Shown here: one piece after another, positions 3,553 through 54,253 of the stretch
Numbering within the stretch: position 1 is the stretch's first letter
Layout of the letters: each line of letters opens with the position of its first letter
Virus record (IMG/VR): IMGVR_UViG_3300038479_000056
Location: 1 to 54,380 of that record
Strand: one strand, 5' to 3'
Source of the DNA: a virus
Taxonomy: Duplodnaviria > Caudoviricetes
Length of the DNA stretch: 54,380 nt
The notes under the pieces: generated by a model
Seen by the model: only the letters and a program-made list of their open reading frames with translations
Told to the model about the DNA's origin: nothing
Database searches by the model: none
Translations under genes and position numbers: made by a program

Positions 3553-3710
3553 CATCCTCCCCGGCCTGAAGGCGCGGGGATTCCTTGAATACAAATATGC
3601 TAGACATTTGCAGAGCTAGGTTGGTTGACACTTCGACGAGCATGGCGCGCCGAGGCCGAAGCCTTGGCGTGACTGATATGCTCTCCATGTCCTTTAACCG
3701 GCTGTCCACC
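3549..3710 (-). ncRNA. Putative omegaRNA scaffold, element 1
   Basis: Position at tnpB 3' end/right end; guide predicted from flank TGGAAAGGCGCATCGC; 5' limit approximate. Confidence 0.55.
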
Positions 3711-4892
3711 GGCAAATTGAAGAATGTTTTTCGCGGCATTCTGATCTCTGTCCAAATGCTCGCCGCAGTTTTCGCATTTGAACTCGCGCACTTCCAAACC
3801 AAGGCTGCTGTGTATGTATCCGCAGGAATTGCACCGCCTGCTGCTTGGGAAGAATCTGTCTGCTACGCGCAACTCGCGGCCATACCAGGCACACTTGTAA
3901 GTCAGCATCGAACGGAACTGCCCAAAGCTGGCGCAACTGATATGCTTTGCGAGTTTGTGGTTCTTGACCATGCCGCGCACGTTCAAGTCCTCGATGGCCA
4001 GAACATCGAACCGGCGCACCAAATCTGTGGTGAGCTTGTCCAGTGTGTCCTTCCGGCAGTTGGCGATCTTGGCGTGCAAACGAGCCACTTTCAACCGCTG
4101 CTGATTCCAACGGCCACTGCCCTTGATGCGACGGGCGAGAACCCGTTGCAATCTCGCCAGCCTTGCGGCGTGGCGGGCAGTGTGGCGTGGGTTTGCCATC
4201 CGCTCGCCGTTACTCAAGGTTGCGAGCCGACTGATTCCAAGGTCAATCCCGACCATGCTTCCTGTCTTTGGGAGCGCGGCCTTGGCTGGTTCGTCCAGAC
4301 AAAGACTCACGAAATAGCGTCCATCCCTGCCCTTGGTTATCGTGCAGGTAGTAGGCTCGCTCGCGAAACCGCGACTCCATTTGACATGAAGCCGACCGAC
4401 TTTGGAAATTGTGAGGTTGCGGTTTGCCGCATCCCATTTGAAACCGCCAGAATGGTATTCGGCGGATTGCTTGTCGTGCTTGGAAGCAAACCTTGGATAG
4501 GCTGTCCGCTTGGCAAAGAAATTGGAGAACGCAGTTTGCAAGTGCCGCAATGCCTGCTGCTGTGGGATGCTGGACGATTCACGCAGAAAAGCAAACTCGC
4601 CGGTATTACGATGTTTAGTCCAAGCCGCGCTGCTGGCGTTGTAATTGACCGGCTTGCCGTCTTTGAAGCTGTCCGTGCGGAGGCGCAAGGCAAAATTGTA
4701 GGCGTGCCTGACACAGCCGAACTCCCGCGCCAGTTGCCGCGCTTGGCGGTCTGTCGGGTAGCATCGGAATGTCATGCGAACTTTCACTTGCAAGAATCTA
4801 CTCCGTCTTGTAAGGTTTGTCCAATGCTAATTTCAACAACTGAAAAAGCCGGGCTAAAGCCACGGGGTTTTCAACCCATAAGGAATGGATAA
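3585..4892 (+). other. Full-length antisense ORF across element 1
   Basis: 435 codons, codon-aligned with tnpB; its TAA overlaps the ATG at 4892 (TAATG); translation unproven. Confidence 0.4.
3600..4793 (-). CDS. tnpB: RNA-guided endonuclease TnpB
   Basis: FRCYPT N-terminus; RuvC GIDLG / IEDL / DRDQNAA; zinc finger CNSC..CENC. Confidence 0.95.
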   Translation of the reverse strand: MQVKVRMTFRCYPTDRQARQLAREFGCVRHAYNFALRLRTDSFKDGKPVNYNASSAAWTKHRNTGEFAFLRESSSIPQQQALRHLQTAFSNFFAKRTAYPRFASKHDKQSAEYHSGGFKWDAANRNLTISKVGRLHVKWSRGFASEPTTCTITKGRDGRYFVSLCLDEPAKAALPKTGSMVGIDLGISRLATLSNGERMANPRHTARHAARLARLQRVLARRIKGSGRWNQQRLKVARLHAKIANCRKDTLDKLTTDLVRRFDVLAIEDLNVRGMVKNHKLAKHISCASFGQFRSMLTYKCAWYGRELRVADRFFPSSRRCNSCGYIHSSLGLEVREFKCENCGEHLDRDQNAAKNILQFAGGQPVKGHGEHISHAKASASARHARRSVNQPSSANV

Positions 4893-5920
4893 TGAACGAG
4901 CCTATCCACATCATCAGCCTTGGGGCTGGAGTTCAATCGTCAACCGATGCGCTCATGGTTTCAGAGGGTGAACGCGGCCCTATGGTGTTGTGTGCGATCT
5001 GTGCAGACACCAAAAGAGAGCCTGGCAGCGTGTATTTGTGGCTCGCTAAACTTTGCGGGTGCGTTGTTCAGTTTCACGCAGACGGCAGGCCGTTTGTTGA
5101 ACCTGGAATTTATTCATCCGGGATGCTCAAGTTTCCGGTTCACATCGTAACTGCCGGGGATATTGTAGAGGATGCCCTGCGCGTCCGGCAACGGCTCGAT
5201 GGCAAAGGTTCATGGGTGCCTAGTGGCGTGCCTCATTATTCGATTAACGCGGACGGAACGCACGGCCACGGGCCAAGGCAATGCACGCATGATTTCAAAA
5301 TAGTTCCCATCGAAAGAGAATTGCGCCGCTTGATCGGGCGAGAGAAAATGTCGGCATGGAGGAAAGTTCACAAAACCGCCCTCAAAGAGATTTCAAAATA
5401 TCAGAAAGCCTTGGCCATTTGGAAACGCAATAGGAAACTAGACCCACTGCTTTTGCCTCCGACGTTTCCAAGTCGTGAATTCGATGAGTGCCAAGCTGAC
5501 CCGTTAGCTATACAGCGCATTGGCATCAGCACCGATGAGGCGTCCAGAGCGAAACCTTCGCGTGTTCCTTACTTGGTTCATATCTGGCCCCACCTTGACC
5601 ACGGCACAAATAGGGATGGCTGCATTGAATGGCTGGCGAAGCGTGGATTGGAAGCTCCTAAATCCGCCTGCGAATTTTGCCCCTACCATGATGACGATGA
5701 ATGGATTTGGTTGCGGGACATGGAGCCGGAAAGTTTTGAGAGGGCGGTAAAATTTGATTACGCTTACCGAGCCGCCAAAATACAGACGGTTTCAATCAAA
5801 GGCTTTGAACCCTTCATCCACCCCAGCCGACTGCCCTTGGACAAAGTCAAATTCAAAAAGTCGCACGGCAAACAACTAACCATGTTTAACAACGAGTGCG
5901 AAGGGATGTGCGGGGTATGA
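4892..5920 (+). CDS. PAPS reductase-like / PP-loop protein
   Basis: ISLGAGVQSS PP-loop, ADT..EP, KSACEFCPY, terminal ECEGMCGV. Confidence 0.75.
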   Translation: MNEPIHIISLGAGVQSSTDALMVSEGERGPMVLCAICADTKREPGSVYLWLAKLCGCVVQFHADGRPFVEPGIYSSGMLKFPVHIVTAGDIVEDALRVRQRLDGKGSWVPSGVPHYSINADGTHGHGPRQCTHDFKIVPIERELRRLIGREKMSAWRKVHKTALKEISKYQKALAIWKRNRKLDPLLLPPTFPSREFDECQADPLAIQRIGISTDEASRAKPSRVPYLVHIWPHLDHGTNRDGCIEWLAKRGLEAPKSACEFCPYHDDDEWIWLRDMEPESFERAVKFDYAYRAAKIQTVSIKGFEPFIHPSRLPLDKVKFKKSHGKQLTMFNNECEGMCGV

Positions 5921-6600: not shown

Positions 6601-7187
6601 ATGTGACCATCATTATGCCATTCTCGCGCGCGCACAATGCCGAGGCGATCAAGGCGTCCTTTGTTTCCGCCTGTGACGGGTTCAACGGCAAAGCCAGGCT
6701 GATTGCCGTTTGTTCCGATGAGGCGCACGTCGGTTTATTTGACGAATCGGTGCTGACTTTTTTGCCGCCGGGTCTGGACTGGTGCTATTTCAAATGCAAT
6801 CAAGCCTTGGAAAATTTGCAGCCGTCCAGCCCCGAAGATTATTTCGGTTTTGTGTGCGACGACGATCTTTATGAGCCGGGCTTTTTCGCGTCCCTGGAAC
6901 AACTGATCGGGGCCAGCCGCCCGCGAGTTATTGTCGTCAACATGAAGCGATGGTTTCACGAGGTCGCTGTGCGGGATGAATTGTCGGCCTGGCCGGATTC
7001 GATGCGGGTTGGGTTGGTGGGTTTGGAGCAATTCTACATTCGGGGCGACATCATGGGGCGGTGGCGGTTCAACCAAAATGTCTCGCACGGCGACGGAGAT
7101 TTGATGGCGCGACTGCACGCGGAGATGCCCCACGATTTCGTTTTCTTCCGGCACTTGTTCGTCCACTGGAACAAACTTCCCGCATGA
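6597..7187 (+). CDS. GT-A (family 2-like) glycosyltransferase
   Basis: GTGA-coupled start; VTIIMP N-terminus; YFGFVCDDDLY DxD motif. Confidence 0.65.
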   Translation: MNVTIIMPFSRAHNAEAIKASFVSACDGFNGKARLIAVCSDEAHVGLFDESVLTFLPPGLDWCYFKCNQALENLQPSSPEDYFGFVCDDDLYEPGFFASLEQLIGASRPRVIVVNMKRWFHEVAVRDELSAWPDSMRVGLVGLEQFYIRGDIMGRWRFNQNVSHGDGDLMARLHAEMPHDFVFFRHLFVHWNKLPA

Positions 7188-9586
7188 CAACCGCACCCAA
7201 CAAGAGTAAGAGTCAATTTATGAAATGGGACAAAGTTGGTGATGTAGAAGAAATTGTCTGGTTCTTAAGAACGAATGATTTAACCCGCGGGGCAAACCGG
7301 GAGAAGATCAACCGACTCTTTAATGGGGGACTTCCGTACAGTAAAGCGCAAGAAGCTGAAAATTCAGTTAGTGTCAACCGCAATTTCCTGACTGGCCCAA
7401 ACATTCTCACATCGGGGCGAGGTCAATGGAACAATGCTTTCCTCAAGCAAAAGACCTATTTCGGGGTCAGTCTTGATTCCGGTCCGGTCAACAAGCGGCA
7501 AGAGGCCGGGGCCATCATCACGCGCAACATCAATCGGCAGTTGAAGAAATGCCGGGCGCAGATGGAGCAAATCCGGGCCGAAGGCGCACAAGTTATTTTA
7601 CACGGTATCGCGCCTAGCGGATTTAAAGACCGGCGCTGTCCCATTCTAACGTCTTTGCCGGTTGCGAGTCTTCTTATTCCTGATGAAACTGATTTGGATT
7701 TTGAGAACCTAGAGTATTTCGCCGTATTCCGGGAATGGACGCCCTACCAACTTTACGCGCTAACGCACGGGCCGAAGGTTGATCCTGGTTGGAACATGGA
7801 AGCCGTCCAAGCTGAGTGGGATTATGTTAAAGAACAGACCCGAAAAGAATTGCCCGGTAGCAACACCTTGCAATTTATGCCTGAAAGAATAATGGAGCTT
7901 GAAAAACAGGCTGCTCTTTGGGGCACAACCGCCGTGCCGACGGTGGACGTGTGGGATTTCTACTTTCGCGAGGCTGAGGACGGGCAAGGTTGGTATCGGC
8001 GCATCATGCTGGATTGGGGCGCGGCTGAGGGCGGTCTGAACGCGAACAGCGCCCAGCCTGAGAGCCGAAACGGAGCAGGCGAAAAAGATTACGGCGGGTT
8101 TCTTTACACCAGCGGCCAGCGTAAGTACGCCAACAGCCTGAGCGAGATTTTACAGTGCCAATTTGGGGATTGCAGCGCTGTGGCGCCGTTCAAGTATCAT
8201 TCCGTGCGGAGCCTGGGCTGGCTGCTGTGGGGCGTGTGCGAGATCGAGAACCGGTTGCGCTGCCGATTCACCGAAAACATGTTTATGAACATGATGTGGT
8301 GGTTTAAGTGCGCCAGCGGCGGGGACATGGCGCGGGTCAAGAAAGCCATGTTCGAGCAGATCGGGGTCATTCCCGCCGGCATAACGATGATGACGGAGAA
8401 CGAACGGTTTAAGCCCGACGAAAAGTTGTGGGCGGTTATGGTGGAGCAGATTGAAAAAACCATGAATCAAAGCGCGGGATCGTTCATGGGCAACCCGGCT
8501 GACATTGGCAAGGAAGAGACAGCCACGGGCACAATGGCGCGCGTTCACAGCGTTGGCCAGATGATGGGGGGGATGCTGACACTGGCCTACGAATACAGCA
8601 AATACAAGTATCAGGAACAGAGCCGCCGGTTCTGCATCAAAAACAGCCCGTATCAGATGGTGAAAGATTTTCGGCTGGCTTGCCTCAAAGACGGCCTGGA
8701 CGCGGAAATGCTGGATTCGAGCCGGTGGAACATCGAGCCAGACCGGGCTTTGGGCGACGGCAATAAGATTTTGGAAATGGCCATCGCGCAAGGTCTGGAA
8801 AACATCAGGAAAAACGCGACACCGGACGGGCAACGGCTCATTGACCATCAGTACGTCGTGACGCTGACGGACCGGCCCGACCTGGCCGAGGCGCTTTTTC
8901 CATTGCAAGGCCAGAAGAAGCTCAGTCCGAGCAGTCACGACGCGCAACTGGCCGCCGACAGGATTCTGCGCGGGCTGCAATTCGCCATTCCGTCCGAGGC
9001 CGTGCCGGAAGATTACGTCATGGTCTGGCTGGGCGACATGGCGGCCGTCATCAAGCAGATTCAAGGGACGGGCAACGTCGGCACGATGCCGGAACTTTTG
9101 GGCCTGGCCAACCTGGGCCAGCACATCGGGCAAGCCATTGGCCTGATGGCGAGCGGGCATGGCAAGGAGCCGGGGCACGGCCAGAAACGGGGCGAGGCCG
9201 AGGACATGCACAAGATCAAGCAGTATAAGGACGCCCTGGGCAAGATGATGAACCTGGTCAAAGGCTTCGCGCAACGGCTCCAAGAGCAGCAGCAAAAGGG
9301 CAACGGGCACGGACTCGACCCGGAGAAGATGGCCAATATTCAGACCGATCAAATGAAGGTCAAGGCCAAAATTCAACTTGGTCAGGAGAGCCACGCGGCC
9401 AAGACCGCGCAGCGGCAGGCTGCATTTGAGCTTGAGCAACGGCGGAAAGACCGTGAAAGCGAGGCGGAAACCCGGCGCCAGAATCAGCGGACGGGCCAGG
9501 AGATCGCGCATAAACACCTGGACAAACTGCTGGACGCCCACCACCGAATGCTGGGCGAAGGCGACGAAAGGACTCAACAGGATTAA
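7184..9586 (+). CDS. Putative portal protein
   Basis: About 800 aa; lies between terL and scaffold/capsid; ETAT motif; Gln-rich coiled-coil tail; ATGA-coupled start. Confidence 0.65.
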   Translation: MTTAPNKSKSQFMKWDKVGDVEEIVWFLRTNDLTRGANREKINRLFNGGLPYSKAQEAENSVSVNRNFLTGPNILTSGRGQWNNAFLKQKTYFGVSLDSGPVNKRQEAGAIITRNINRQLKKCRAQMEQIRAEGAQVILHGIAPSGFKDRRCPILTSLPVASLLIPDETDLDFENLEYFAVFREWTPYQLYALTHGPKVDPGWNMEAVQAEWDYVKEQTRKELPGSNTLQFMPERIMELEKQAALWGTTAVPTVDVWDFYFREAEDGQGWYRRIMLDWGAAEGGLNANSAQPESRNGAGEKDYGGFLYTSGQRKYANSLSEILQCQFGDCSAVAPFKYHSVRSLGWLLWGVCEIENRLRCRFTENMFMNMMWWFKCASGGDMARVKKAMFEQIGVIPAGITMMTENERFKPDEKLWAVMVEQIEKTMNQSAGSFMGNPADIGKEETATGTMARVHSVGQMMGGMLTLAYEYSKYKYQEQSRRFCIKNSPYQMVKDFRLACLKDGLDAEMLDSSRWNIEPDRALGDGNKILEMAIAQGLENIRKNATPDGQRLIDHQYVVTLTDRPDLAEALFPLQGQKKLSPSSHDAQLAADRILRGLQFAIPSEAVPEDYVMVWLGDMAAVIKQIQGTGNVGTMPELLGLANLGQHIGQAIGLMASGHGKEPGHGQKRGEAEDMHKIKQYKDALGKMMNLVKGFAQRLQEQQQKGNGHGLDPEKMANIQTDQMKVKAKIQLGQESHAAKTAQRQAAFELEQRRKDRESEAETRRQNQRTGQEIAHKHLDKLLDAHHRMLGEGDERTQQD

Positions 9587-9740
9587 AGTTCCCCGGCCTA
9601 AAGGCACGGGGATTTAGCCGAGTCCTTCACCAACACCAAATCGCCATGCGGAACGCACGATTCAGAGTCAATATCGACAGACCCGATGCTTTTAGCGGCT
9701 TTAATGCTCGCCGTCTCCGAAGCGTTGCACGCTATGGAGA
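9583..9740 (-). ncRNA. Putative omegaRNA scaffold, element 2
   Basis: Overlaps tnpB 3' end and right-end hairpin; guide predicted TCCTGTTGAGTCCTTT; 5' limit approximate. Confidence 0.5.
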
Positions 9741-10779
9741 CAGACCGCGCCCGGATGTTCTTCGAGGCTTGGCGGTCTGCGTCGTCCTTGTGGCCGCACT
9801 TCTGACAACAGAAGCGCAAGCCTTTCCGGTTCGATGCCGAGACATGGCCGCAGGCACTACACCCACGGCTTGTGTTGCGGGGGCTGACGGACTCCAATTC
9901 GATTCCGACAGCAGCAGCCTTATAGGCGATCTTGAATCGCATATCGGCATACGGCCAGCGGTGAACTTTGGAACGGAGGTCTTTCCCCTTGCTCAGAGAA
10001 CTGTCTCGAATGTTCTCCAAGTTCTCGACCACGATGCGCCTTGCTCCAACCTCAACCGCGTAGCTGACCAGTGCCTTACTTGCCGTGTGGAGCAAGTGCG
10101 CGGTTACGGCAGCCTCATGCCCGGACATCCTTCGCAGGAGCCTCCGGGCACTTCTGGTGCCAACCGACTGGACAGCGGCGCGGGTGCGCCGGATACAAGA
10201 ACGACGGTGATTCAACACCCCGCCGTGGAAGAAAAATGGTTTGGCGTTTGCCGAGTTGGTAGCGACCAGCATTCGCTTGATGCCGAAATCACAGCCGACA
10301 ATGCAGCCCTCGGACTTCGGTTCGGGAATCTCGACTTCGTGAGCCAAGCAGAGAAACCACTGGTTGCCTATACGCTTGATCTTGGAGTCTTTCCAGTCGC
10401 CCTCTGGCAGTGGGCGGGAATCCACGACGGTCAGAAGTTCCCCCCAAAGTGTGATGCCTTTTTTGGTGCGATTGAAATCCCGCTTCCATACCGTCGGGAT
10501 AACGGCACGGGAAAACTTCGCAAGCCTCCAACGCTTGTTCGCCTTGGCGGTCTTGTAGGTGGCGCAGACGGTTTTGCAGAGGGAGCAGGCAAGTTGGGAA
10601 GGCAGCCCCATCTCTCGGAGGTTGGCGTAGTGAGCTTTTGCCAGTCGATTCGAGTTCAACTCCTCGGTCTTGAAGGCAATATCGGAAAGCCAGTTTGCAG
10701 CTTTCAGCCAAACAGCAAGCAATCCGTCAGCTTTTGTGCTGCCGGAAATCTTGAGCTTGACTGTGCGGATTGCTTTCAC
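9598..10779 (-). CDS. tnpB: RNA-guided endonuclease TnpB
   Basis: RTVKLK N-terminus; GCDFG / VVENL / DADRQAS; CSAC..CQKC. Confidence 0.95.
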   Translation of the reverse strand: MKAIRTVKLKISGSTKADGLLAVWLKAANWLSDIAFKTEELNSNRLAKAHYANLREMGLPSQLACSLCKTVCATYKTAKANKRWRLAKFSRAVIPTVWKRDFNRTKKGITLWGELLTVVDSRPLPEGDWKDSKIKRIGNQWFLCLAHEVEIPEPKSEGCIVGCDFGIKRMLVATNSANAKPFFFHGGVLNHRRSCIRRTRAAVQSVGTRSARRLLRRMSGHEAAVTAHLLHTASKALVSYAVEVGARRIVVENLENIRDSSLSKGKDLRSKVHRWPYADMRFKIAYKAAAVGIELESVSPRNTSRGCSACGHVSASNRKGLRFCCQKCGHKDDADRQASKNIRARSVSIACNASETASIKAAKSIGSVDIDSESCVPHGDLVLVKDSAKSPCL

Positions 10780-10787
10780 TACATTGA

Positions 10788-10816
10788 AGGCTACTACAAA
10801 GAAAAAACAATGTCAA
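10788..10816 (-). promoter_or_regulatory. Sigma70-like promoter of tnpB2
   Basis: TTGACA-17-TAGCCT ending about 9 nt before the GTG. Confidence 0.55.
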
Positions 10817-10845
10817 CCGAATTGCGAAGCGTGAAAAACAAATAA
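10810..10845 (+). pseudogene. tnpA: Putative tnpA N-terminal stub
   Basis: MSTELRSVKNK, divergent from tnpB; matches MSNELR of element 4. Confidence 0.45.
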
Positions 10846-10849: not shown

Positions 10850-12142
10850 ATGCAGGATATTTCTCAAATTACAGCGTGCTTGATTTCGTCGGGATTATTC
10901 CAGCCTATGGCGCATATTTTAGCCACGAAATGCAAAAGGGTTTTAATCTGGTCGCCGGATGAAAGAGATTTTCCGTCCGTGAAACAGGCCAGCATGGGCA
11001 GCGGCTTTCCCGACATCGAACGGGTGCGGGAGTTTTGGCCGTTGAAGAACGAAATAAGTTGCTTCGTTTTTCCCGATGTCTCCATGCCCGGCCTGCAACT
11101 CGAATTGGAGTCCCAAGGATACCCCGTTTGGGGAAGCCGCAACGGGGTTGATCTGGAATTGAAGCGGGAACGGTTCATGGAGGTCTTGGGCGAGATCGGT
11201 CTGGACGTGCCGCCGTTCCATGTCTGTGCTGGCATGGACGAACTCCGGGCCTATCTCCGGGACAATGAAGATCAATTCGTCAAGATCAGCCGTTTCCGGT
11301 TCGACATGGAAACGCACCATTGGCGGAACTGGGCGATGGACGAGAGCTGGTTGGATTGGCTTGCTTACAGCTTAGGGCCGGTCAAGGACGTGCTTCGGTT
11401 CCTGGTCTTTGCCAAGATCGAGACCGATCTTGAAATCGGTGGCGACACGTTCAATGTGCGCGGGCAATGGCCGGGGCTGATGCTGAACGCTTATGAGTAC
11501 AAGGATTCCACCTTGTTTTCGGCTGTGACCAAGCGCGAGGAAATGCCGGAACAGATTCAGGAAATAATGACGGCACTGACACCGTACTTGACCGAGTGCA
11601 ATTACCGGAACCAGATCAGTTTCGAGGACAGGGTCAAGGGCGACAAACATTACTTCATAGATGCCACGATGCGCGGAGGTATGCCGAGTTCTGGCAGTCA
11701 GCAGCTTCTTTGGGGCAACTTTCCTGAGATCGTTTGGGCCGGAGCAAATGGGGAACTGGTCGAGCCGGTGCCGTGGGCAAAGTTCAGCTTGGAGTGCATG
11801 GTGACGGCGGAAGCCGGGGACGCGCCGTGGATAAAATGCGAGTTTGACCAGGCACTTTTCCCGTGGCTTCGGCTTTCGGATTGCGCCCTTATCAATGGCA
11901 TTCACTGTTTCCCCCAAGAAGAATCGCATGGAGGGGAACTGGGTTGGTTGGTGGCTCTTGGGGATAGCCCGCAGGAAGTCTTAGACGAGGCAAAACGGCT
12001 GGCTGATTTGCTCCCGGACGGGTGCGATGCCAAGTTGGAAAATCTGGTCGGCCTCATCAAAGAAGTCGAAACCGGAGAGAAAGCGGGCGTGCCTTTTACC
12101 AGTTATCCAATTCCAACTCCCGGAGAAGTAGTTGCCGAATGA
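10850..12142 (+). CDS. ATP-grasp fold protein (PurD-like)
   Basis: GYPVWGS..LELKRERFMEVLGEIGLDVPPF, FVKIS and YFIDATMRGG resemble GAR synthetase-like ATP-grasp proteins. Confidence 0.65.
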   Translation: MQDISQITACLISSGLFQPMAHILATKCKRVLIWSPDERDFPSVKQASMGSGFPDIERVREFWPLKNEISCFVFPDVSMPGLQLELESQGYPVWGSRNGVDLELKRERFMEVLGEIGLDVPPFHVCAGMDELRAYLRDNEDQFVKISRFRFDMETHHWRNWAMDESWLDWLAYSLGPVKDVLRFLVFAKIETDLEIGGDTFNVRGQWPGLMLNAYEYKDSTLFSAVTKREEMPEQIQEIMTALTPYLTECNYRNQISFEDRVKGDKHYFIDATMRGGMPSSGSQQLLWGNFPEIVWAGANGELVEPVPWAKFSLECMVTAEAGDAPWIKCEFDQALFPWLRLSDCALINGIHCFPQEESHGGELGWLVALGDSPQEVLDEAKRLADLLPDGCDAKLENLVGLIKEVETGEKAGVPFTSYPIPTPGEVVAE

Positions 12143-12143
12143 T

Positions 12144-12374
12144 ATGAACCCGCTCCCAAACCTGCCGCCAGTTCAGTCCGCGCCCGCGCCAGCCCCGGCC
12201 CATGACCATACCGTGCGCGAGGGCCAGACCTGTCCGACCTGCAACCGGGTCAAGGAATACGCTACGACCAAGCCGGGCGTGATGCCGGGGAAAGGCACCA
12301 AAATCCGTGTCATGGCGACCAAGAGCCGGGGCCGGAAACAGGCTAAGGACGCACGAAAGGTGCGTTTCTATTAA
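12144..12374 (+). CDS. Small basic hypothetical protein (CxxC)
   Basis: CPTC motif; fills the gap between genes. Confidence 0.5.
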   Translation: MNPLPNLPPVQSAPAPAPAHDHTVREGQTCPTCNRVKEYATTKPGVMPGKGTKIRVMATKSRGRKQAKDARKVRFY

Positions 12375-12405
12375 CATGAAAAGACGCAATTTTTTAACAG
12401 CAAGT

Positions 12406-13302: not shown

Positions 13303-13303
13303 T

Positions 13304-13582
13304 ATGCTTCGTTCACCCCGCGTTAAATTTGTTACAGGCCCGCACAAGGCTGCGTTTGAAACCATCGTTGCCAGCCAAGCCTTTGAAGAAGCGACTCTGG
13401 CCGCCCTACTCGAGTACCAAGCCAGTCTGCCGCTGGATTGCGACTTGAATCAAGCTGTTGCAGCTCATAACCAGATGGTGGGCGCGCGCCGGTTCCTGGA
13501 CACGCTTTGTTCCATCCACAAACCCGAAACCGTCCATAAACAGGCCGAACAAACCGGCTTGGACGAAACAGCAGGAGTATAA
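13304..13582 (+). CDS. Hypothetical protein preceding scaffold
   Basis: Tight packing; helical composition. Confidence 0.6.
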   Translation: MLRSPRVKFVTGPHKAAFETIVASQAFEEATLAALLEYQASLPLDCDLNQAVAAHNQMVGARRFLDTLCSIHKPETVHKQAEQTGLDETAGV

Positions 13583-13585
13583 CCT

Positions 13586-45226: not shown

Positions 45227-45255
45227 GCGCCGCCGGGCCTGTAACCCAGCGGCGC
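45227..45255 (-). terminator. Terminator-like hairpin
   Basis: GCGCCGCTGGG..CCCGGCGGCGC followed by ATCTTTCTT on the minus strand. Confidence 0.55.
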
Positions 45256-45278: not shown

Positions 45279-46526
45279 TTACGCCCGAGTACTTGGCCAG
45301 TCAACAAATAACGGCAGGGAATCCCGCCATTGATGGTGGGAGGAATTGCCGCCCTTGACAAACTGTGTTTTATTTTCTGTATTTGAATAATGACAGTGAC
45401 GGTCCAATTGAAACTGATGCCCGATGCGGCGACCGCCGCATCGATGGAGGCCACTTTGCGGGCGTGCAACGGGGCGGCTGACTGGCTTTCGGAGCGCGCC
45501 TGGGGCAACCGGAAATTCGGGCAGTTCGCTTTGCAATCCGCTTTCTACAAGGACATTCGGGCAATGTTTAACATCGGGGCGCAGGCATCCTGCTTGATCT
45601 GCGCTAAAGTGGCCGATGCCTACAAACTCGACACCGAAACGCAGCGGACCTTCCGACCTTTGGGCAGCATCGCCTACGATGTCCGTAATTTGAAAATTCA
45701 CATTGAGAAGCGCGTGGCCTCGATCTGGACCATTGACGCTCGGTGCAAGGTTCCATTTCAGTGCGGCGATTACCAGGTTGATCTGCTCCGCAAAGGTCTG
45801 ATAAAGCAATCCGACCTCGTGCGCCGCCGGGATGGCCGATGGTTCCTGATGGTTTCTGTGACGCTTCCAGACACCGAGGAGTTGAAAGTGACCGACATTT
45901 TGGGCGTGGACCTGGGCATCGCTGTCATAGCCGCCGATTCGGACGGCAACAAATACTCCGGCTCCAAGTTGAATAAAATCCGGCACAGGAACAAATCGTT
46001 GCGCCGGAAGTTGCAGCGCAAAGGGACCAAGTCGGCCAAGCGGCTGTTGAAAAAGAGGAGCGCAAAAGAGGCTCGCTTCGCCCGTGACTGCAATCATGTT
46101 ATTTCCAAGAAGCTCGTATCGCTGGCTAAACGCACCAACCGCGCCATTGCACTCGAAGAACTCGACGGCATTGGCCGGAGGATAAGGGTTAGAAAAAGTC
46201 AGCGATACGGGTTGCATAGCTGGGCTTTCGCGCAACTGGGCCAGTTCACCCGTTACAAGGCCGCGATAGCAGGAGTGCCGGTGATCTTCATTGACCCGCA
46301 CTATACATCCCAGCGATGCAGCCAATGCGGCCACACCTCCAGAGCCAACCGCAAAACGCGGTCGGAATTTCTCTGCCAGAAGTGCGGCCATGCGTCCCAT
46401 GCGGACACAAACGGTTCGCTGAACATTAGGGCCTTGGGCCTGGACGTTCTGCGAACGGGCGCTTTCATACGCCCATACGCGGAGGCCACTACCTATGCCA
46501 ACTGACATGGGCTTATCCATCTGCAA
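45279..46526 (-). other. Full-length antisense ORF across element 3
   Basis: 415 codons, codon-aligned; stops shortly before the terminator; translation unproven. Confidence 0.35.
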
Positions 46527-46551
46527 TCCCGCCGTTCACGGTGGGTCTATG
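45305..46551 (+). mobile_element. IS200/IS605-family non-autonomous tnpB element 3 (ends approximate)
   Basis: Matching subterminal hairpins ATCCCGCCATTGATGGTGGG (left) and ATCCCGCCGTTCACGGTGGG (right); TTGACA at 45355. Confidence 0.75.
45390..46505 (+). CDS. tnpB: RNA-guided endonuclease TnpB
   Basis: TVQLKL; GVDLG / ALEEL / HADTNG; CSQC..CQKC. Confidence 0.95.
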   Translation: MTVTVQLKLMPDAATAASMEATLRACNGAADWLSERAWGNRKFGQFALQSAFYKDIRAMFNIGAQASCLICAKVADAYKLDTETQRTFRPLGSIAYDVRNLKIHIEKRVASIWTIDARCKVPFQCGDYQVDLLRKGLIKQSDLVRRRDGRWFLMVSVTLPDTEELKVTDILGVDLGIAVIAADSDGNKYSGSKLNKIRHRNKSLRRKLQRKGTKSAKRLLKKRSAKEARFARDCNHVISKKLVSLAKRTNRAIALEELDGIGRRIRVRKSQRYGLHSWAFAQLGQFTRYKAAIAGVPVIFIDPHYTSQRCSQCGHTSRANRKTRSEFLCQKCGHASHADTNGSLNIRALGLDVLRTGAFIRPYAEATTYAN

Positions 46552-46581
46552 AAAACGAGGCTATCCCACCAAAACGAGGCT

Positions 46582-46848
46582 CTAGGATGGCTCAGGCCGT
46601 ATCTGGAGTGCCTGGGTAAGTGTCTCGTAAGCCATTCCTACCCTGCCCTGTTCCAGTTCCGACACCGCCTCGATGATGGCCCCGCGCAGCCTGTCCTCGG
46701 TTGTAATCCTGACCAGCGGCAGGCCCGCCGCAGCCAGATTTTCGTTCAGGCCGATGGTGGCCGCGAACCGTGGCCGGTCCTCTCGCGCGTCTTCCTGGTC
46801 CTGGGCCAGCACCGCCGCATCTAATTCCTCCCATTCTTTGGTGTTCAT
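46582..46848 (-). CDS. Hypothetical protein
   Basis: ATGA-coupled to the helicase. Confidence 0.6.
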   Translation of the reverse strand: MNTKEWEELDAAVLAQDQEDAREDRPRFAATIGLNENLAAAGLPLVRITTEDRLRGAIIEAVSELEQGRVGMAYETLTQALQIRPEPS

Positions 46849-48797: not shown

Positions 48798-48969
48798 ACG
48801 CGCGGAAGGCAATCCTAAATCCATCGCCGTTGAGCCGCCTTCTAATCAGTTCGCGAATTTGCTTCACGTTGCATCCAGCGCGTAAGTAATCTGGCAGAGC
48901 TGCAAGAATGTCATCGCATTTCTGTAGTGCTTCCGCTTCGCCTTTTGACAATGGGGTGTAAACGCTCAT
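48778..48969 (-). CDS. Small hypothetical protein
   Basis: ATGA-coupled start. Confidence 0.5.
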   Translation of the reverse strand: MSVYTPLSKGEAEALQKCDDILAALPDYLRAGCNVKQIRELIRRRLNGDGFRIAFRAYDTNRH

Positions 48970-49415
48970 ACGCCGGGATGATCTTTGGCCCAGTCGCGCA
49001 AGTAACGGCCAGCGATGATTTTTTGCATGTATCCGCCGTTGACCGCCAGCCATTCAAGTTGCGGCTTGCTGGCCGCTTCCCAATTAGCCGTAAACCAACC
49101 CGGCGTTGGATCCGGTGTTACGATTTGCGGCCCAAGAACCATGGACATTCTACCTTTGCCTTGACCCCACCTCGGGGGCCATTCCCCACGCCACCCACAG
49201 CCTTGCGTGTGGCAGCGCACGGTTCTTAGGATTTTCACTCCACCCAGGCCATCATCGGTGGTGTCGCGCCCAAAGTGCTCGCCTGAGCACAGAGGGCAAA
49301 CAAACGGCAGGCTTGGCCTTCCGCCGCGTTTTCCGTTCTCACGAACGGCCCGCGCCTTGGCGGCCGATTTCGCCACGCCGCCAAGGCGACCCAATGCTTG
49401 CGCGTGCTTGTTCAT
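48966..49415 (-). CDS. Basic GG..RENGKRGGRP domain plus Zn-ribbon protein
   Basis: Paralog of 15362-15532; CPLC..CHTQGC. Confidence 0.6.
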   Translation of the reverse strand: MNKHAQALGRLGGVAKSAAKARAVRENGKRGGRPSLPFVCPLCSGEHFGRDTTDDGLGGVKILRTVRCHTQGCGWRGEWPPRWGQGKGRMSMVLGPQIVTPDPTPGWFTANWEAASKPQLEWLAVNGGYMQKIIAGRYLRDWAKDHPGV

Positions 49416-49678
49416 GGCGTCTCAGTGGCGCTTTCTTCGCCACGGATAATTTCTATGGTCAGTTCATTTTCGCGAGCCGCCGCCAACCCCCCTTCGTAGC
49501 CTCTCAGCCATTTTCGGAGAACTATGCGAGCAAGTTGCTCGACCGGGAGGGTAAATCTGGTGTGCTCCAACACATCCGCCATGCCGCACCCACCATCCGA
49601 GGTGACGGTGAGAGAGTTACCTGTCGCCGTCGCGTGCGCCCCTGTGCCAATGTCAGTTATAGAGATTTGTGTTTTCAT
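49412..49678 (-). CDS. Hypothetical early protein
   Basis: ORF packing. Confidence 0.55.
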   Translation of the reverse strand: MKTQISITDIGTGAHATATGNSLTVTSDGGCGMADVLEHTRFTLPVEQLARIVLRKWLRGYEGGLAAARENELTIEIIRGEESATETP

Positions 49679-49681
49679 AAT

Positions 49682-50017
49682 TTACCAATTTCCAGGCCCA
49701 TCTGGGCGGGTCGTATCCACGGTCGGGCGGGCGTCGGCAAATGTAGGCTCAAGCCCATATACATCCGGGCCAAGGTATTTATGGCCACGGAAGTAATCCG
49801 ATATATTCACGCCGTCATTACGATCTGGCCACCATCCTTGGTGGACGACCTCGACATACACCAGCGATGGGTCAATCCTTGCCACTTCCCGCGCCTTGGT
49901 GGCGGATATTTCATCTTGCGCCGCTTCAACCGGGTCAGCGTATTTTCGCAAGGTCAATCCGTCTCGCGCCGCCAGACGCATTGCGTTCTCGCCGTTTATT
50001 TTATAGATTTCGTTCAT
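49682..50017 (-). CDS. Hypothetical early protein
   Basis: ATGA coupling. Confidence 0.55.
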   Translation of the reverse strand: MNEIYKINGENAMRLAARDGLTLRKYADPVEAAQDEISATKAREVARIDPSLVYVEVVHQGWWPDRNDGVNISDYFRGHKYLGPDVYGLEPTFADARPTVDTTRPDGPGNW

Positions 50018-50484
50018 TCCGCGGCCTTTCGGCGCCAGGCCAGCCAAGCCTCACTGATTTCGTCGGAATCTCTATACTCGAGCGACTCCAACCCTTGCTT
50101 TCCTGTGGCAGGGTCTTGCGCCCACGTGTCGGTAATCCGGTACCGTCCGCAGTAGCAGCATACCTCAGTGATTTTGAACCCGCCTCCATGCCCCTGCACG
50201 CCGGGACTCTCTGCACAACCTCCTACCACACTCAGCGGCGAGACCCAATCATGCTCGCCAGCCCAGCAGTCCGCTACCGTGGGCGGCACCTCAATCGTAT
50301 GTCTCTCGGGTCCTCCCTCTGCACTCCCTTCCTCATCCTTATCCTGCCGCACCACGCAAGTTACCCATGTTGTCTTGTCCCCACTGCCCCAATCCCCTGT
50401 ATCTACCCATTTTTGGCACGCCGCTCGCGCCGATTCAGCCTCAATTTCTTTTTCTCCATTCCCGTCCGTCACTCTGTATGTCAT
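50014..50484 (-). CDS. Hypothetical early protein
   Basis: HDW..GC..CCYCG pattern. Confidence 0.6.
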   Translation of the reverse strand: MTYRVTDGNGEKEIEAESARAACQKWVDTGDWGSGDKTTWVTCVVRQDKDEEGSAEGGPERHTIEVPPTVADCWAGEHDWVSPLSVVGGCAESPGVQGHGGGFKITEVCCYCGRYRITDTWAQDPATGKQGLESLEYRDSDEISEAWLAWRRKAAE

Positions 50485-50600
50485 ATATTTTCTTTCATTT
50501 CCGCTCAAAATTACCATCTCCTAACCCACGCCACAAGCACCGGCCCCAGTACCAACGGTAACCAAAACCATTCCTCAGCCAGCGACCAAATAACTCCCCA

Positions 50601-50643
50601 TCTCGCTTCATGCTCATTGTCCACTTCTCGCTTCATGCTCATT
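50601..50643. repeat. 18-bp direct repeat
   Basis: TCTCGCTTCATGCTCATT at 50601 and 50626. Confidence 0.8.
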
Positions 50644-50851
50644 CTCCCCCCCCCATTATTTGTTGCCGTATAATGTCAAATCCCTCTTCATGGTCCCACA
50701 CGGGATCCCCATTGGTTTCAATCACTTCACGTCCGTCCACTTCGTACAACGTCATCCGGTTGTCTCCTACACCACCGCTCCCAAGCTTTTTTATCCCGCG
50801 TCCTCCGCAGTACTTCCGAATCCCTATACTTGTTATTTTGTTAGTCTTCAT
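50639..50851 (-). CDS. Hypothetical early protein
   Basis: First gene after the promoter; ETNGDPVW. Confidence 0.6.
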   Translation of the reverse strand: MKTNKITSIGIRKYCGGRGIKKLGSGGVGDNRMTLYEVDGREVIETNGDPVWDHEEGFDIIRQQIMGGGE

Positions 50852-52655: not shown

Positions 52656-52673
52656 CAGAAGGCCCTCCGAACA

Positions 52674-52837: not shown

Positions 52838-52850
52838 CAAAAATCTTCAA

Positions 52851-53045
52851 TTATTTTTCCTTGAACCAGACCTCGAAGTCTTTGAGGACGCGGCGGATTT
52901 GGCCGGCTTTGGCCAGCAATTCGCAATGGCTCTGGCAGATATTCTCCGGGATGCCGGAGATGCAGGCGATGTATTTGGGCTGGAAAGAGAGGCCGGCGGC
53001 GGCGGAATTGAGTATGGTCTGGATGGCGATGGAGTGTTGGTTCAT
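52851..53045 (-). CDS. Small winged-helix-like protein
   Basis: GLSFQPKYIACISGIPENICQSHCELLAKAGQI. Confidence 0.55.
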   Translation of the reverse strand: MNQHSIAIQTILNSAAAGLSFQPKYIACISGIPENICQSHCELLAKAGQIRRVLKDFEVWFKEK

Positions 53046-53080
53046 ACACTGTGATTATTTCTACGAAGCTCGTTTGACAT
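53042..53080 (-). pseudogene. tnpA: Putative tnpA N-terminal stub
   Basis: MSNELRRNNHSV resembles Y1 transposase N-termini (..RxxHSVY..); divergent from tnpB. Confidence 0.55.
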
Positions 53081-54253
53081 ATTCAATCCTTTGAATATAT
53101 TAAGCGAGTGAAGTTGACTGTTCAAGTGAAACTTTTGCCGACGCCAGAACAATCGAAGGCGTTGCGCGAAACTCTGGAGTTGGCGAATCAAGCGGCATGT
53201 CGTCTGTCGGAACTGTGCTGGGAAAAGAAGGAGTTTCGCCAGTTCCCAATGCACCGTTTGTTCTACAAACAGATTCGCAGTGAGTTCGATTTGTCCTCTC
53301 AGGTTGTTGTCCGCCTTAACTCCAAGGTTGCTGACGCCTACAAGCTGGACGAGAAGACGCAACGCACTTTTCGCAAGCACGGCAGCATTTCCTACGACGC
53401 TCGCATTCTTGATTTCCAACTTCCTGCCTCGACCGTGAGCATCTGGACTGTGAGAGGAAGGTTGAAACATATTCAGTTTGTCTGTGGCGAGCGCCAGCGT
53501 AAGCTGCTGGAACTTCCGAAAGGCGAGAGCGATTTGGTTCTGCGTGACCGCAAGTGGTATCTCAACGTGACCGTGGACGTGCCAGAGGAACGCGAACAGG
53601 AAGTTGTTGGCTGGCTTGGCATCGACCTTGGACTGGTGAACCTCGCGCAGAGTTCCGACGGGCAGACATTCGGTGACGCTCGCAAGACAGCCGGTATTCG
53701 CGCTCGGCGATGGCGGCAGAGAAAGCGACTTCAAAAGAAAGGCACGCGCAAGGCCAAGCGCATCCTGCACCGGCTCAGTGGACGGGAACAAAGATTTATG
53801 CGGGACGTGAATCACGTCGTCGCCAAACAGATTTGCGGTGTTGCTAAACGCACGAATCGAGGGATTGCCTTGGAAGATTTGAAAGGTATTCGTTCGAGGA
53901 TCAGGGCTAACCGAAAGCAACGCCGCATCCTGCACTCGTGGGCCTTCGCGGATCTCCAAGCGAAGATTGCCTACAAGGGCAGGCTTATCGGAGTGCCGGT
54001 CAAACTCGTTGACCCTCGCAACACCAGCCGGACTTGTCCGGCCTGCGGCAGTGTCAGTAAGAAGAACCGGCCCACACGCGATAAGTTCGCGTGCCAGTCG
54101 TGCGGGTTTACCGCCGATGCCGATACCAACGCAGCGGGAAACATTTCTCGCCGGGGTGCCTTCAATCACCCGCACGTAACGGAAATTAGTTGTGGCAAAA
54201 TCCATGACCGTATCCAGTTACAATCCCCATCCCTTCAGGGAGGGGTAATTGAA
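53046..54253 (+). mobile_element. IS200/IS605-family non-autonomous tnpB element 4
   Basis: Right-end hairpin CCCCATCCCTTCAGGGAGGGG then TAATTGAA; right junction fixed (+/-1 nt) by the empty allele at 64-68; preceded by TCAT. Confidence 0.8.
53074..53101 (+). promoter_or_regulatory. Sigma70-like promoter, leaderless tnpB4
   Basis: TTGACA-16-TATATT; GTG begins 7 nt after the -10 box. Confidence 0.65.

What the first reader, a model, noticed from the sequence alone, without database searches (positions are those of the whole stretch)
3585..54205. Every tnpB carries a full-length antisense ORF that hands ribosomes to the next phage gene (candidate polarity-suppressing system)
Seen: 4/4 elements have an unbroken antisense frame (435, 399, 415 and 387 codons). 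Each starts just inside the right end, crosses the AT-rich promoter region and lies on the strand of the adjacent phage operon. Element 1 ends in TAATG (4890-4894), element 2 ends 4 nt before ATG 10850, element 4 ends in ATGA (53045-53042), and element 3 ends before a terminator. Inference: the frame is kept open so the 1.2-kb insert is translated, avoiding Rho polarity and preserving translational coupling. It may or may not yield a functional protein. Caveat: all are in the codon-aligned register that opens when TTA/CTA/TCA are rare. Other long genes here show long but only partial antisense ORFs.
Basis: partly seen in the sequence, partly recalled or inferred. Interest (0 to 1): 0.9.

Follow-up and report, generated by a model that had tools for sequence, protein, structure and literature searches.

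The report
Stop-free reverse frames across phage transposons
Four unrelated TnpB transposons sit backwards inside this peat-soil phage's operons, and each keeps its non-coding strand free of stop codons, most likely so that ribosomes reading the phage message can cross the insert and reach the next phage gene.

Summary
The four tnpB genes are only about 21% identical to each other. Together they hold 1 TTA/CTA/TCA codon where 27 are expected. Other A-ending codons are normal, and the other two registers are full of such triplets.

The trait is widespread. Among 212 tnpB relatives from viral and metagenome contigs, stop-free copies lie mostly backwards to their neighbours (64 antisense, 6 sense). 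Copies with stops lie mostly forwards (18 antisense, 36 sense). A strict phylogenetic pair test is underpowered (p about 0.125).

Only the absence of stops is conserved, not the product. The reverse frame has dN/dS of 0.9-2.0, against 0.08-0.25 for TnpB.

Metagenome contigs give the empty site of element 1. It sits one base before the native TAA of a TAATG stop/start overlap. Its right end supplies a new stop, and its reverse frame ends on the native TAA. Elements 2 and 4 keep 7 and 12 codons of a divergent tnpA. In a 96%-identical relative the reverse frame runs in frame into a complete TnpA.

Translation, and any role of Rho, are inferred, not shown. Element 3 ends before a terminator-like hairpin. 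This scan noted the same trait earlier on other DNA. My literature searches found no published description for TnpB.

The parts
3549..4888 (-). Element 1: a complete tnpB-only IS200/IS605-type element, 1340 bp
   Evidence: Contigs of 3 of the 4 runs laid (X15, X5, X8) join 3548 directly to 4889, with no ambiguity at the joint. Depth inside the element is lower than in the flanks, so the insertion is polymorphic. GC-rich hairpin-like repeats lie near both ends.
3600..4793 (-). tnpB T1, 397 aa
   Evidence: Pfam HTH_OrfB_IS605, OrfB_IS605 and Cas12f1-like_TNB. It has 0 TTA/CTA/TCA against 6.3-6.9 expected.
3585..4892 (+). Reverse frame A1, 435 codons. It starts 32 nt after the upstream gene's stop and ends on the native TAA that overlaps ATG 4892.
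3549..3702 (-). Right end of element 1, a candidate omega-RNA region. Its last bases, read on the + strand, supply the new TGA stop (3550-3552) of gene 2848-3552.
   Evidence: RNA-library run X16 has summed contig depth 558 (1319 at position 3644) in bin 3428-3741, against 0-16 in its other 29 bins. One contig ends at 3702 in adapter sequence. Contigs carry no strand, and other copies of this end may contribute. The terminal motif is conserved in T1-family relatives. Rfam gives no match.
2848..3552 (+). Phage gene upstream of element 1. Its last codon and its stop are altered by the insertion.
   Evidence: In the empty allele the gene ends CAA TAA, overlapping the next ATG. In the filled allele it ends CAT TGA.
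4892..5920 (+). Phage gene downstream of element 1 (PAPS-reductase-like)
   Evidence: PHROG 424. In relative L158 its ATG overlaps an unrelated upstream ORF's stop as ATGA.
9583..10841 (-). Element 2. The right-end boundary is firm. The left boundary is approximate, and no left-end hairpin is present.
   Evidence: Eleven copies in other flanks (77-92% nucleotide identity to element 2) lose similarity to the window at 9583 (1659-1661 in query coordinates; exactly there in 9). Variant joints lie at 9582/9583 in X15, X8 and X5. The left side has no hairpin.
9598..10779 (-). tnpB T2, 393 aa
   Evidence: Pfam. It has 0 TTA/CTA/TCA against 7.6-10.0 expected.
9646..10845 (+). Reverse frame A2, 399 codons. 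It ends 4 nt before ATG 10850.
10810..10829 (+). Relic of a divergent tnpA (first 7 codons). Its ATG overlaps the -35 box of the tnpB promoter on the other strand.
   Evidence: Alignment with the tnpA start of L254. The A2 tail reads MSTELRSVKNK*.
10850..12142 (+). Phage gene downstream of element 2, with no SD-like match
   Evidence: Anti-SD duplex energy is -0.3 kcal/mol.
45390..46505 (+). tnpB T3, 371 aa
   Evidence: Pfam. It has 0 TTA/CTA/TCA against 5.7-6.3 expected.
45279..46526 (-). Reverse frame A3, 415 codons
45310..45331 (+). Left-end hairpin of element 3. A similar hairpin follows the tnpB stop.
   Evidence: The same hairpin type occurs at the left ends of relatives.
45227..45255 (-). 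Terminator-like hairpin 24 nt after the A3 stop
   Evidence: 13 pairs, 10 of them G-C, followed by a T-rich tail.
53108..54259 (+). tnpB T4, 383 aa
   Evidence: Pfam. It has a single TTA, at 54218, which bounds the reverse frame. A promoter-like site lies at 53074-53101.
53042..54205 (-). Reverse frame A4, 387 codons. It ends in ATGA with the next ORF.
53046..53080 (-). Relic of a divergent tnpA (first 12 codons), abutting the phage ATG
   Evidence: Alignment. The A4 tail reads MSNELRRNNHSV*.
52851..53045 (-). 64-aa ORF downstream of element 4, with no SD-like match
   Evidence: Anti-SD duplex energy is +0.2 kcal/mol. No Pfam match.

Best explanation
Each tnpB element lies backwards inside a phage transcription unit. 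Its operon-strand frame, in the register aligned codon for codon with tnpB, is kept free of stop codons by selection. The cost to TnpB is nil, because only the synonymous choices TTA, CTA and TCA are avoided. The likely benefit is that ribosomes on the phage message translate across the 1.26-1.34 kb insert. That would avoid a long untranslated stretch (premature termination, decay) and would deliver ribosomes to the stop/start junction of the next phage gene.

Shown: the stop depletion, its specificity, its persistence through saturating synonymous change, the lack of conservation of the product, the junction anatomy, and the empty site of element 1.

Inferred: that the frames are translated, how ribosomes load, and whether the gain is anti-Rho polarity, translational coupling or RNA protection.
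For: (1) Depletion. There is 1 TTA/CTA/TCA codon against 27.3 expected in four tnpBs that are only 21-22% identical to each other. A within-gene control gives the same result. The depletion is register-specific.

(2) Generality. Relatives at every GC level show it. Examples are L297 (GC3 0.31) with 1 against 24.6, L135 with 0 against 14.4, and L086 with 1 against 22. Flanking control ORFs of 250 aa or more with GC3 below 0.5 are never stop-free (0 of 79).

(3) Context. Among 212 viral and metagenome rows, open copies are 64 antisense, 6 sense and 18 mixed or unknown. Closed copies are 18, 36 and 18. Another 52 rows are ambiguous. Raw Fisher p is 7e-12. At one count per 70%-identity cluster the table is 24/4 against 12/18, p = 4e-4.

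(4) The product is not conserved. The reverse frame has dN/dS of 0.88-1.97 in the 19 usable pairs (above 1 in all but two; one of the 20 printed rows, T2 vs L270, was a misalignment and is discarded). TnpB dN/dS is 0.08-0.25 in the 11 of those pairs where dS could be estimated, with dS of 0.34 up to saturation in all but the nearly identical T1-L163 pair (dS 0.04). Stops are still absent.

(5) Junctions. Spacings here are -1, +4 and -4 nt. Among relatives, 6 of 18 open viral rows with a co-oriented left ORF have -4 or -1. In five T1-family copies in different flanks, the stop is the last triplet before the flank diverges.

(6) Empty allele of element 1. It shows a native TAATG junction. The right end gives the upstream gene a new stop, and the reverse frame ends on the native TAA.

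(7) The phage relies on tight spacing. In my gene list, 21 of 39 adjacent gene spacings are between -4 and +8 nt. SD signal is weak overall (median -3.5 against -2.4 kcal/mol at random positions). The genes after elements 2 and 4 score -0.3 and +0.2.
Against: - There are no strand-resolved RNA, ribosome or peptide data. The RNA-library contigs cover the elements but carry no strand.
- The phylogenetically independent pair test is not significant. Of 18 pairs that differ in orientation, openness goes the same way in 3.5, the other way in 0, and does not differ in 14.5 (median p 0.125). Openness behaves as a lineage trait.
- 12 clusters are antisense yet closed, and 4 are sense yet open.
- Bacterial open copies show no orientation bias (6 sense, 2 antisense with both flanks called; orientation calls are weak at high GC).
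- A3 is followed by a terminator-like hairpin, and the next start is 59 nt away.
- A4 has no upstream gene or promoter-like site on the contig.
- Reverse-frame starts lie 32, 59 and 55 nt after the upstream stops, with weak SD (A2 +2.4 kcal/mol). The review read here says coupling falls off beyond about 30-40 nt.
- My flank gene calls are a simple longest-ORF heuristic, not a gene finder.
Confidence: 0.6

Rival explanations
1. The frames are open by chance or by general codon bias: rare TTA/CTA/TCA in a 55% GC genome, or in the elements' former host.
For: Long partial antisense ORFs occur under other genes here. In actinobacterial relatives with high GC3, control ORFs are also often stop-free (37 of 123 at GC3 above 0.8).
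Against: There is 1 such codon against 27 expected, while other A-ending codons are normal. The within-gene model is conservative. Relatives with GC3 of 0.29-0.47 are open where 0 of 79 control ORFs are. The depletion is register-specific. The four tnpBs are independent lineages.
Confidence: 0.02
2. Each reverse frame encodes a functional protein: a second gene of the transposon, or a phage protein.
For: The ORFs are full length, have start codons, and persist across relatives.
Against: Pfam finds no family in 4 of 4. The four products are only 15-22% identical to A1 (18 and 15% for A3 and A4), no more alike than their TnpBs. dN/dS is about 1-2, and identity decays much faster than for TnpB (96 to 82%, 85 to 58%, 65 to 41%). 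Start positions and ends vary with context.
Confidence: 0.05
3. The frame is, or was, a long translated leader that brings ribosomes from host read-through transcripts to a divergently placed tnpA. Transposase synthesis would then depend on host transcription. In the tnpA-less copies here the frame would be a relic.
For: L254 has a TnpB 96% identical to T2. Its 528-aa reverse ORF carries a complete Y1_Tnp domain at residues 400-520 (E 6e-32). In the T2 family, 14 of 16 open copies with an adjacent divergent tnpA have it in phase, and 11 of those have no stop between. Many are near-identical copies of one lineage. A2 and A4 end in the first 7 and 12 tnpA codons.
Against: 83 of 101 open rows have no adjacent tnpA, including all 15 T1-family, 29 of 30 T4-family and 13 of 15 T3-family rows. 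Yet they stay open through saturated synonymous divergence. In high-GC relatives with a divergent tnpA, 8 of 30 are in phase, about chance. A fusion of 400 unconserved residues to a 140-aa transposase has no known precedent (from my own knowledge).
Confidence: 0.1
4. Translation of the reverse frame matters, but for shielding the phage RNA (against RNases, or against pairing with tnpB mRNA or omega RNA) and not for polarity or hand-off to the next gene.
For: Element 3 keeps the frame although a terminator-like hairpin follows it. The abstract on ambigrammatic narnaviruses proposes that translation itself protects RNA.
Against: Exact -4/-1 overlaps with the next start recur. The downstream genes after elements 2 and 4 lack SD. 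That points to delivery of ribosomes. The two ideas are not exclusive.
Confidence: 0.15

Closest known systems
MIRUs (mycobacterial interspersed repetitive units), as described in Brown & Wade 2025, J Bacteriol (PMC12548453; passages read)
   Same: Both are mobile sequences that insert at gene junctions. [quoted passage not shown] The review suggests this minimises the effect on that gene's expression. Elements 1 and 4 here end at -1 and -4.
   Different: MIRUs are short, gene-less repeats of mycobacteria. Here the bridge is about 400 codons long and is the reverse strand of a working nuclease gene on a 1.26-1.34 kb transposon in a phage. It needs sustained avoidance of three sense codons.
Ambigrammatic narnaviruses (reverse ORF of Culex narnavirus 1; Retallack et al. 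2021, PMC8316113; abstract read)
   Same: [quoted passage not shown] It is maintained by selection, and translation itself is proposed as the function.
   Different: Narnaviruses are eukaryotic RNA viruses, and both strands are their own RNAs. Here the element is DNA, and the reverse strand is read as part of a host (phage) operon and ends at the host's gene junction.
IS200/IS605-family tnpB-only (IS1341-type) elements with omega RNA, such as ISDra2 and IS608 (recalled; no call)
   Same: TnpB has the RuvC D-E-D residues and a zinc ribbon. Subterminal hairpins are present. Insertion is next to a short motif without target duplication. The guide-adjacent right end is conserved.
   Different: My searches found no description of stop-free reverse frames, or of their link to backward insertion in operons, for this family.
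IStrons: group I intron plus IS607/IS605-type tnpB, spliced out of host transcripts (recalled; named also in earlier scan notes)
   Same: Both are TnpB-bearing elements that lessen the cost of sitting inside host genes or operons.
   Different: IStrons act at the RNA level by self-splicing and in the sense orientation. Here no ribozyme was found (Rfam gave no match), and the proposed relief works through translation of the reverse strand.

Membership tests
IS200/IS605-family TnpB (OMEGA) element | TnpB protein with OrfB_IS605 and zinc-ribbon (TNB) domains and the RuvC D-E-D residues | tested here: met
   Pfam hits in 4 of 4. D184, E268, D350 and the four Cys are invariant in the alignment of the four.
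IS200/IS605-family TnpB (OMEGA) element | Subterminal hairpins at both ends | tested here: inconclusive
   Similar hairpins lie at both ends of elements 1 and 3. Elements 2 and 4 have a right-end hairpin or conserved end only. On the left they have a tnpA relic and no hairpin.
IS200/IS605-family TnpB (OMEGA) element | Insertion 3' of a short target motif without target-site duplication; precise empty site | tested here: met
   Shown for element 1 only. The joint 3548 to 4889 appears in contigs of 3 of the 4 runs laid, with no shared letters at the joint. The flank on the tnpB strand ends in TTAT. A second insertion site seen as loose ends in X15 and X8 shares the same four letters.
IS200/IS605-family TnpB (OMEGA) element | Omega RNA from the 3' end of tnpB and the right end | tested here: inconclusive
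   A very deep RNA-library contig covers roughly 3556-3702 in X16, but it carries no strand. Rfam gives no match. No fold or covariation analysis was done.
IS200/IS605-family TnpB (OMEGA) element | Y1 transposase TnpA (autonomous members) | tested here: not met
   No tnpA lies in the window. Only 7- and 12-codon relics remain. Relatives such as L254 carry it. The four are non-autonomous.
MIRU-like coupling ORF elements | [quoted passage not shown] | tested here: met
   Met for 3 of 4: -1 (A1), +4 (A2) and -4 (A4). Not met for A3, which is 59 nt away with a hairpin between.
MIRU-like coupling ORF elements | Short gene-less repeat of mycobacteria | tested here: not met
   These are 1.26-1.34 kb gene-bearing transposons in a phage from peat or permafrost metagenomes.
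Ambigrammatic (reverse-ORF) arrangement | Full-length reverse ORF in the codon-aligned register, kept by selection against TTA/CTA/TCA | tested here: met
Ambigrammatic (reverse-ORF) arrangement | Reverse ORF shown to be translated | not testable with these tools
   Only unstranded contigs of RNA libraries were available.

The most novel reading that the evidence does not exclude
These IS605-type elements are built as seamless operon inserts.
- The target motif on the tnpB strand (TTAT) is the reverse complement of A-TAA, so a backward insertion lands one base before a gene's TAA stop.
- The conserved right-end terminus, read backwards, gives that gene a replacement stop in phase.
- A roughly 400-codon stop-free bridge then carries ribosomes across the element to the native stop/start junction.
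- In full-length relatives the same bridge runs in frame into TnpA. Host ribosomes would then also make the transposase, tying transposition to host operon expression.
Probability: 0.25. Interest if true: 0.9.

Novelty: new variant of a known kind. Interest (0 to 1): 0.8.

Why it matters
If the reading is right, TnpB transposons (the ancestors of Cas12) have a third way, besides self-splicing IStrons and guide-RNA homing, to live inside essential operons at low cost. They make their own reverse strand translatable.

It would explain how phages tolerate several 1.3-kb insertions between tightly coupled genes. It would give annotators a rule: long 'hypothetical' ORFs opposite tnpB are bridges, not genes. 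It would add a natural, testable case of translation needed for its own sake in bacteria. It also suggests a design rule for inserting cargo into operons without polarity.

Tried and rejected
- Close relatives of T3 in viral contigs by single-protein scan: none found. I switched to alignment queries.
The phage-sized contigs of about 46-60 kb that hold several tnpB relatives could therefore not be fetched.
- Megablast of window 10850-14854 against GenBank phages: no match.
- PHROGs named 2 of 10 phage proteins. Pfam named 0 of 10 further ORFs. The flanking genes stay mostly unnamed.
- L158 is not a true empty site for element 1, because its upstream gene is unrelated. It only shows that the downstream gene is natively ATGA-coupled.
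- I first read the left junctions of T1 and T4 as a TTCAT motif. The contig joint then placed element 1's end four bases further in, at TTAT. For T4 the junction is a tnpA-relic breakpoint, not a left end.
- I modelled element 2's left end at TTAT as well. Comparison with relatives shows that its left side is a truncated tnpA region, so that boundary is only approximate.
- Gap sizes between tnpB and its neighbours do not separate open from closed antisense copies (45 against 8 rows).
- Parts of the window without cover in RNA-library contigs were not used as evidence.
- Row 'T2 vs L270' was a misalignment and is discarded.
- Rows dropped before counts: tblastn matches covering fewer than 300 query residues, matches on the minus strand of a locus, and ORFs cut by a locus end. 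292 tnpB rows were kept from 331 loci.
- The IS900 'hed' ORF named in an earlier scan note could not be verified: one search listed nothing relevant. I do not rely on it.
- Supplementary files were not consulted.
- No structure prediction, complex prediction or atlas search was run, because dN/dS near 1 made them uninformative.

Full report
**What is there.** The window is a whole 54,380-bp virus record. Near-identical DNA occurs in peat and permafrost metagenomes. Four ORFs carry the TnpB domains OrfB_IS605 and Cas12f1-like_TNB:
- T1 3600-4793(-)
- T2 9598-10779(-)
- T3 45390-46505(+)
- T4 53108-54259(+)

They are only 21-22% identical to T1. All keep the RuvC D-E-D residues and the four zinc-ribbon cysteines. 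Each lies opposite to its flanking phage genes. Each is covered by a long ORF on the other strand: A1 435 aa, A2 399 aa, A3 415 aa and A4 387 aa. All four are in the codon-aligned register. None has a Pfam match.

**Is it more than chance?** An antisense stop in this register needs a sense TTA, CTA or TCA codon.
- The four tnpBs hold 0, 0, 0 and 1 of these. The single one, at 54218, bounds A4.
- The 45 other genes I listed hold 204 in 13,373 codons.
- Given each tnpB's Leu and Ser content and the phage's synonymous usage, 27.3 are expected.
- Other A-ending codons are normal or high in the tnpBs: ACA 17 against 10.6 expected, CCA 16 against 6.5, GCA 25 against 13.4, GTA 6 against 7.9.
- A within-gene model scales TCN, CTN and TTR by the same gene's use of NCA and GTA. 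It expects 6.3, 10.0, 5.7 and 5.9. It under-predicts the other phage genes (175 expected, 204 observed).
- The other two registers carry 10-19 such triplets per gene.
- None of the 17 other genes of 300 or more codons is fully open.
- The frames also cross 21-36 non-coding codons of AT-rich left-end sequence without a stop. The joint shuffle probability is about 6e-4. The A3 segment is bounded by its own first stop, so that number is generous.

**Relatives.** I gathered DNA for relatives with alignment queries:
- T3/T4-type, from bacterial genomes: 80 loci.
- T3/T4-type, from viral contigs: 77 loci.
- T1-type, from viral contigs: 80 loci.
- T2-type, from viral contigs: 10 loci.
- T2-type, from metagenome contigs: 79 loci.

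After dropping partial matches, 292 tnpB rows remained: 147 viral, 65 metagenome and 80 bacterial.

The depletion is widespread and bimodal. Examples are L135 (GC3 0.30) with 0 against 14.4, L086 with 1 against 22, and L297 (GC3 0.31) with 1 against 24.6. By contrast L128 has 22 against 19.6 and L107 has 25 against 32. Of 79 flanking control ORFs with GC3 below 0.5, none is stop-free. The trait is therefore not peculiar to this phage.

**Context.** I called a copy 'open' if it had at most 1 such codon where 4.5 or more were expected. I called it 'closed' if observed/expected was at least 0.5. I called its orientation from the nearest ORFs of 100 aa or more within 500 nt, using a simple heuristic. 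The 212 viral and metagenome rows fall as follows:

| Class | Antisense | Sense | Mixed/unknown |
|---|---|---|---|
| Open | 64 | 6 | 18 |
| Closed | 18 | 36 | 18 |
| Ambiguous | 28 | 10 | 14 |

The raw Fisher p is 7e-12. Counting each 70%-identity cluster once per category gives 24/4 against 12/18, p = 4e-4.

The stricter test on a tree is not significant. It found 18 independent pairs that differ in orientation. Openness went the same way in 3.5, the other way in 0, and did not differ in 14.5 (median p 0.125, and likewise). Openness thus behaves as a slowly changing lineage trait, with 13 changes on the tree. It is correlated with a backward life-style, and it is not a site-by-site adaptation.

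In bacterial genomes, open copies show no clear orientation bias. With both flanks called, 6 are sense and 2 antisense. Orientation calls are weak at high GC.

**The product is not conserved.** One search printed 20 comparisons with relatives. One (T2 vs L270) was a misalignment and is discarded.
- TnpB dN/dS is 0.08-0.25 in the 11 pairs where dS could be estimated. In all but the nearly identical T1-L163 pair (dS 0.04), dS runs from 0.34 to saturation.
- The reverse frame has dN/dS of 0.88-1.97 in the 19 usable pairs (above 1 in all but two).
- Reverse-frame identity falls much faster than TnpB identity: 96 to 82%, 85 to 58%, and 65 to 41%.

So synonymous sites of tnpB are free to change, except that they never create a reverse stop. 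This argues against a functional reverse protein and for selection on translatability itself.

**Junction anatomy here.**
- A1 ends in TAATG with gene 4892-5920.
- A2 ends 4 nt before ATG 10850.
- A4 ends in ATGA with a 64-aa ORF.
- A3 ends 24 nt before a 13-bp terminator-like hairpin, and the next candidate start is 59 nt away.

Contigs of 3 of the 4 runs laid join 3548 to 4889. Element 1 is therefore 3549-4888 and is polymorphic in nature. In X5 the depth is about 49-52 in the flanks and 11-18 inside the element.

The empty allele reads so that the upstream gene ends CAA TAA, with the TAA overlapping the next gene's ATG. This is a native coupling junction. The element sits one base before that TAA. 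The first bases of its right end, read on the operon strand, give the upstream gene a new in-phase TGA. Its reverse frame ends on the native TAA. On the tnpB strand the flank ends in TTAT. A second insertion site of the same left end, seen as loose ends in X15 and X8, shares those four letters.

The right-end terminus is conserved in T1-type relatives. Element 2's terminus is conserved in eleven copies that lie in different flanks. It likewise supplies the TAA stop of gene 7061-9586.

Among relatives, 6 of 18 open viral rows with a co-oriented left ORF have a stop/start spacing of -4 or -1. My measure picks the nearest in-frame start, which favours small gaps, and two of the six rows are one site. 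Five T1-type copies in different flanks stop on the last triplet before the flank diverges.

A2 and A4 end in MSTELRSVKNK* and MSNELRRNNHSV*. These tails align with the start of a divergently placed tnpA in relative L254, over 7 and 12 codons. Elements 2 and 4 are therefore derivatives of an IS605-type element that lost tnpA and its left end. The two breakpoints are independent, and both landed next to the following phage ATG.

In L254, whose TnpB is 96% identical to T2, the reverse ORF is 528 aa and carries a complete Y1_Tnp domain at residues 400-520. In the T2 family, 14 of 16 open copies with an adjacent divergent tnpA have it in phase, 11 of them without an intervening stop. Many of these are near-identical copies of one lineage.

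This fits a continuous translated path across a full-length element. It also allows a second reading, in which host ribosomes reach TnpA. Against that as the general cause, 83 of 101 open rows have no adjacent tnpA.

**Why translation would matter in this phage.** In my gene list, 21 of 39 adjacent gene spacings lie between -4 and +8 nt. SD-like pairing is weak overall (median -3.5 kcal/mol, against -2.4 at random positions). The genes after elements 2 and 4 score -0.3 and +0.2. In relative L158, the homolog of gene 4892-5920 is ATGA-coupled to an unrelated upstream ORF. A 1.3-kb untranslated insert would break such chains.

How ribosomes enter the reverse frames is open. The first starts lie 32, 59 and 55 nt after the upstream stops, with weak or no SD. 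The review read here reports that coupling fades beyond about 30-40 nt. A4 has no upstream gene or promoter-like site on the contig.

**Comparison with what is known.**
- Brown & Wade 2025 (passages) describe MIRUs as mobile repeats that insert at start codons, so that an internal ORF is coupled at -4 nt, probably minimising harm. This is the closest functional parallel, but MIRUs are short and gene-less.
- The abstract on ambigrammatic narnaviruses describes a full-length reverse ORF whose translation itself seems to matter. This parallels the architecture, but in a eukaryotic RNA virus.
- Four literature searches on tnpB with antisense ORFs, phage orientation, polarity or ribosome profiling listed nothing that describes this trait for TnpB or IS200/IS605. 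Supplements were closed and not consulted.
- What I state about IS608 end motifs, TnpB homing and IStrons is recalled, not taken from a call.

**Earlier notes of this scan.** Several AI follow-ups reported the same trait on other DNA, including other phages and an archaeal ribosomal operon. I took from them the MIRU and narnavirus leads, and I read those two papers myself (passages of the first, the abstract of the second). All counts here are from my own calls.

**Verdict.** Selection for stop-freeness is very likely (about 0.9). The translational-bridge explanation is the best supported (about 0.6), but no expression data test it. I class it as a new variant of a known kind: coupling ORFs of mobile elements, and ambigrammatic frames.

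Noticed in passing
window 3549-4888 and 9583-10841: Both elements are polymorphic in natural populations. In run X5 the depth is about 49-52 in the flanks, 11-18 in element 1 and about 26 in element 2. Empty-site contigs for element 1 occur in 3 of the 4 runs laid. The empty site carries the flank motif followed by the sequence next to the right end, which is what a guide-RNA homing model would need (the model is recalled).
   Followed up: partly
window about 3556-3702: RNA-library run X16 has summed contig depth 558 (1319 at position 3644) here, against 0-16 in its other 29 bins. A contig ends at 3702 in adapter sequence. This is a candidate abundant omega RNA of element 1. Alternatively it comes from gene-less mini-copies: loose ends at 3680 join this right end directly to another flank in X5 and X8.
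   Followed up: partly
L254 4548-6134(-): A 528-aa ORF is made of the reverse strand of tnpB fused in frame to a complete Y1 transposase (TnpA) domain. Eleven T2-family copies show the same continuity.
   Followed up: partly
window 10805-10835 and 53060-53101: The -35 box of the tnpB promoter overlaps, on the other strand, the ATG of the tnpA relic. The tnpB start codons lie only a few bases after the -10 box, so tnpB mRNAs may be leaderless.
   Followed up: no
window 48966-50673: Both strands are open here. ORFs 49106-50155(+) and 49867-50673(+) lie opposite three minus-strand ORFs (49412-49678, 49682-50047, 50014-50517) that contain no TTA, CTA or TCA. None has a Pfam match, so which strand codes is unclear.
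   Followed up: partly
window 16385-17809(+): This 474-codon gene has only 1 TTA/CTA/TCA and a 376-aa antisense ORF (16265-17395). It is the most open of the non-tnpB genes and has GC3 of 0.75.
   Followed up: no
window 46550-46585: An 11-nt direct repeat occurs twice, just outside the right-end hairpin of element 3 and next to the stop of the upstream gene 46582-46848(-). The right boundary of element 3 was not resolved.
   Followed up: no
whole window: Shine-Dalgarno-like pairing before phage genes is barely above background. Many genes start a few bases after an A/T-rich stop region, which suggests translation largely by coupling. One T2 relative in the protein search is labelled by its source as from a Terracidiphilus MAG. 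Together with the peat habitat, this hints at an acidobacterial host.
   Followed up: no
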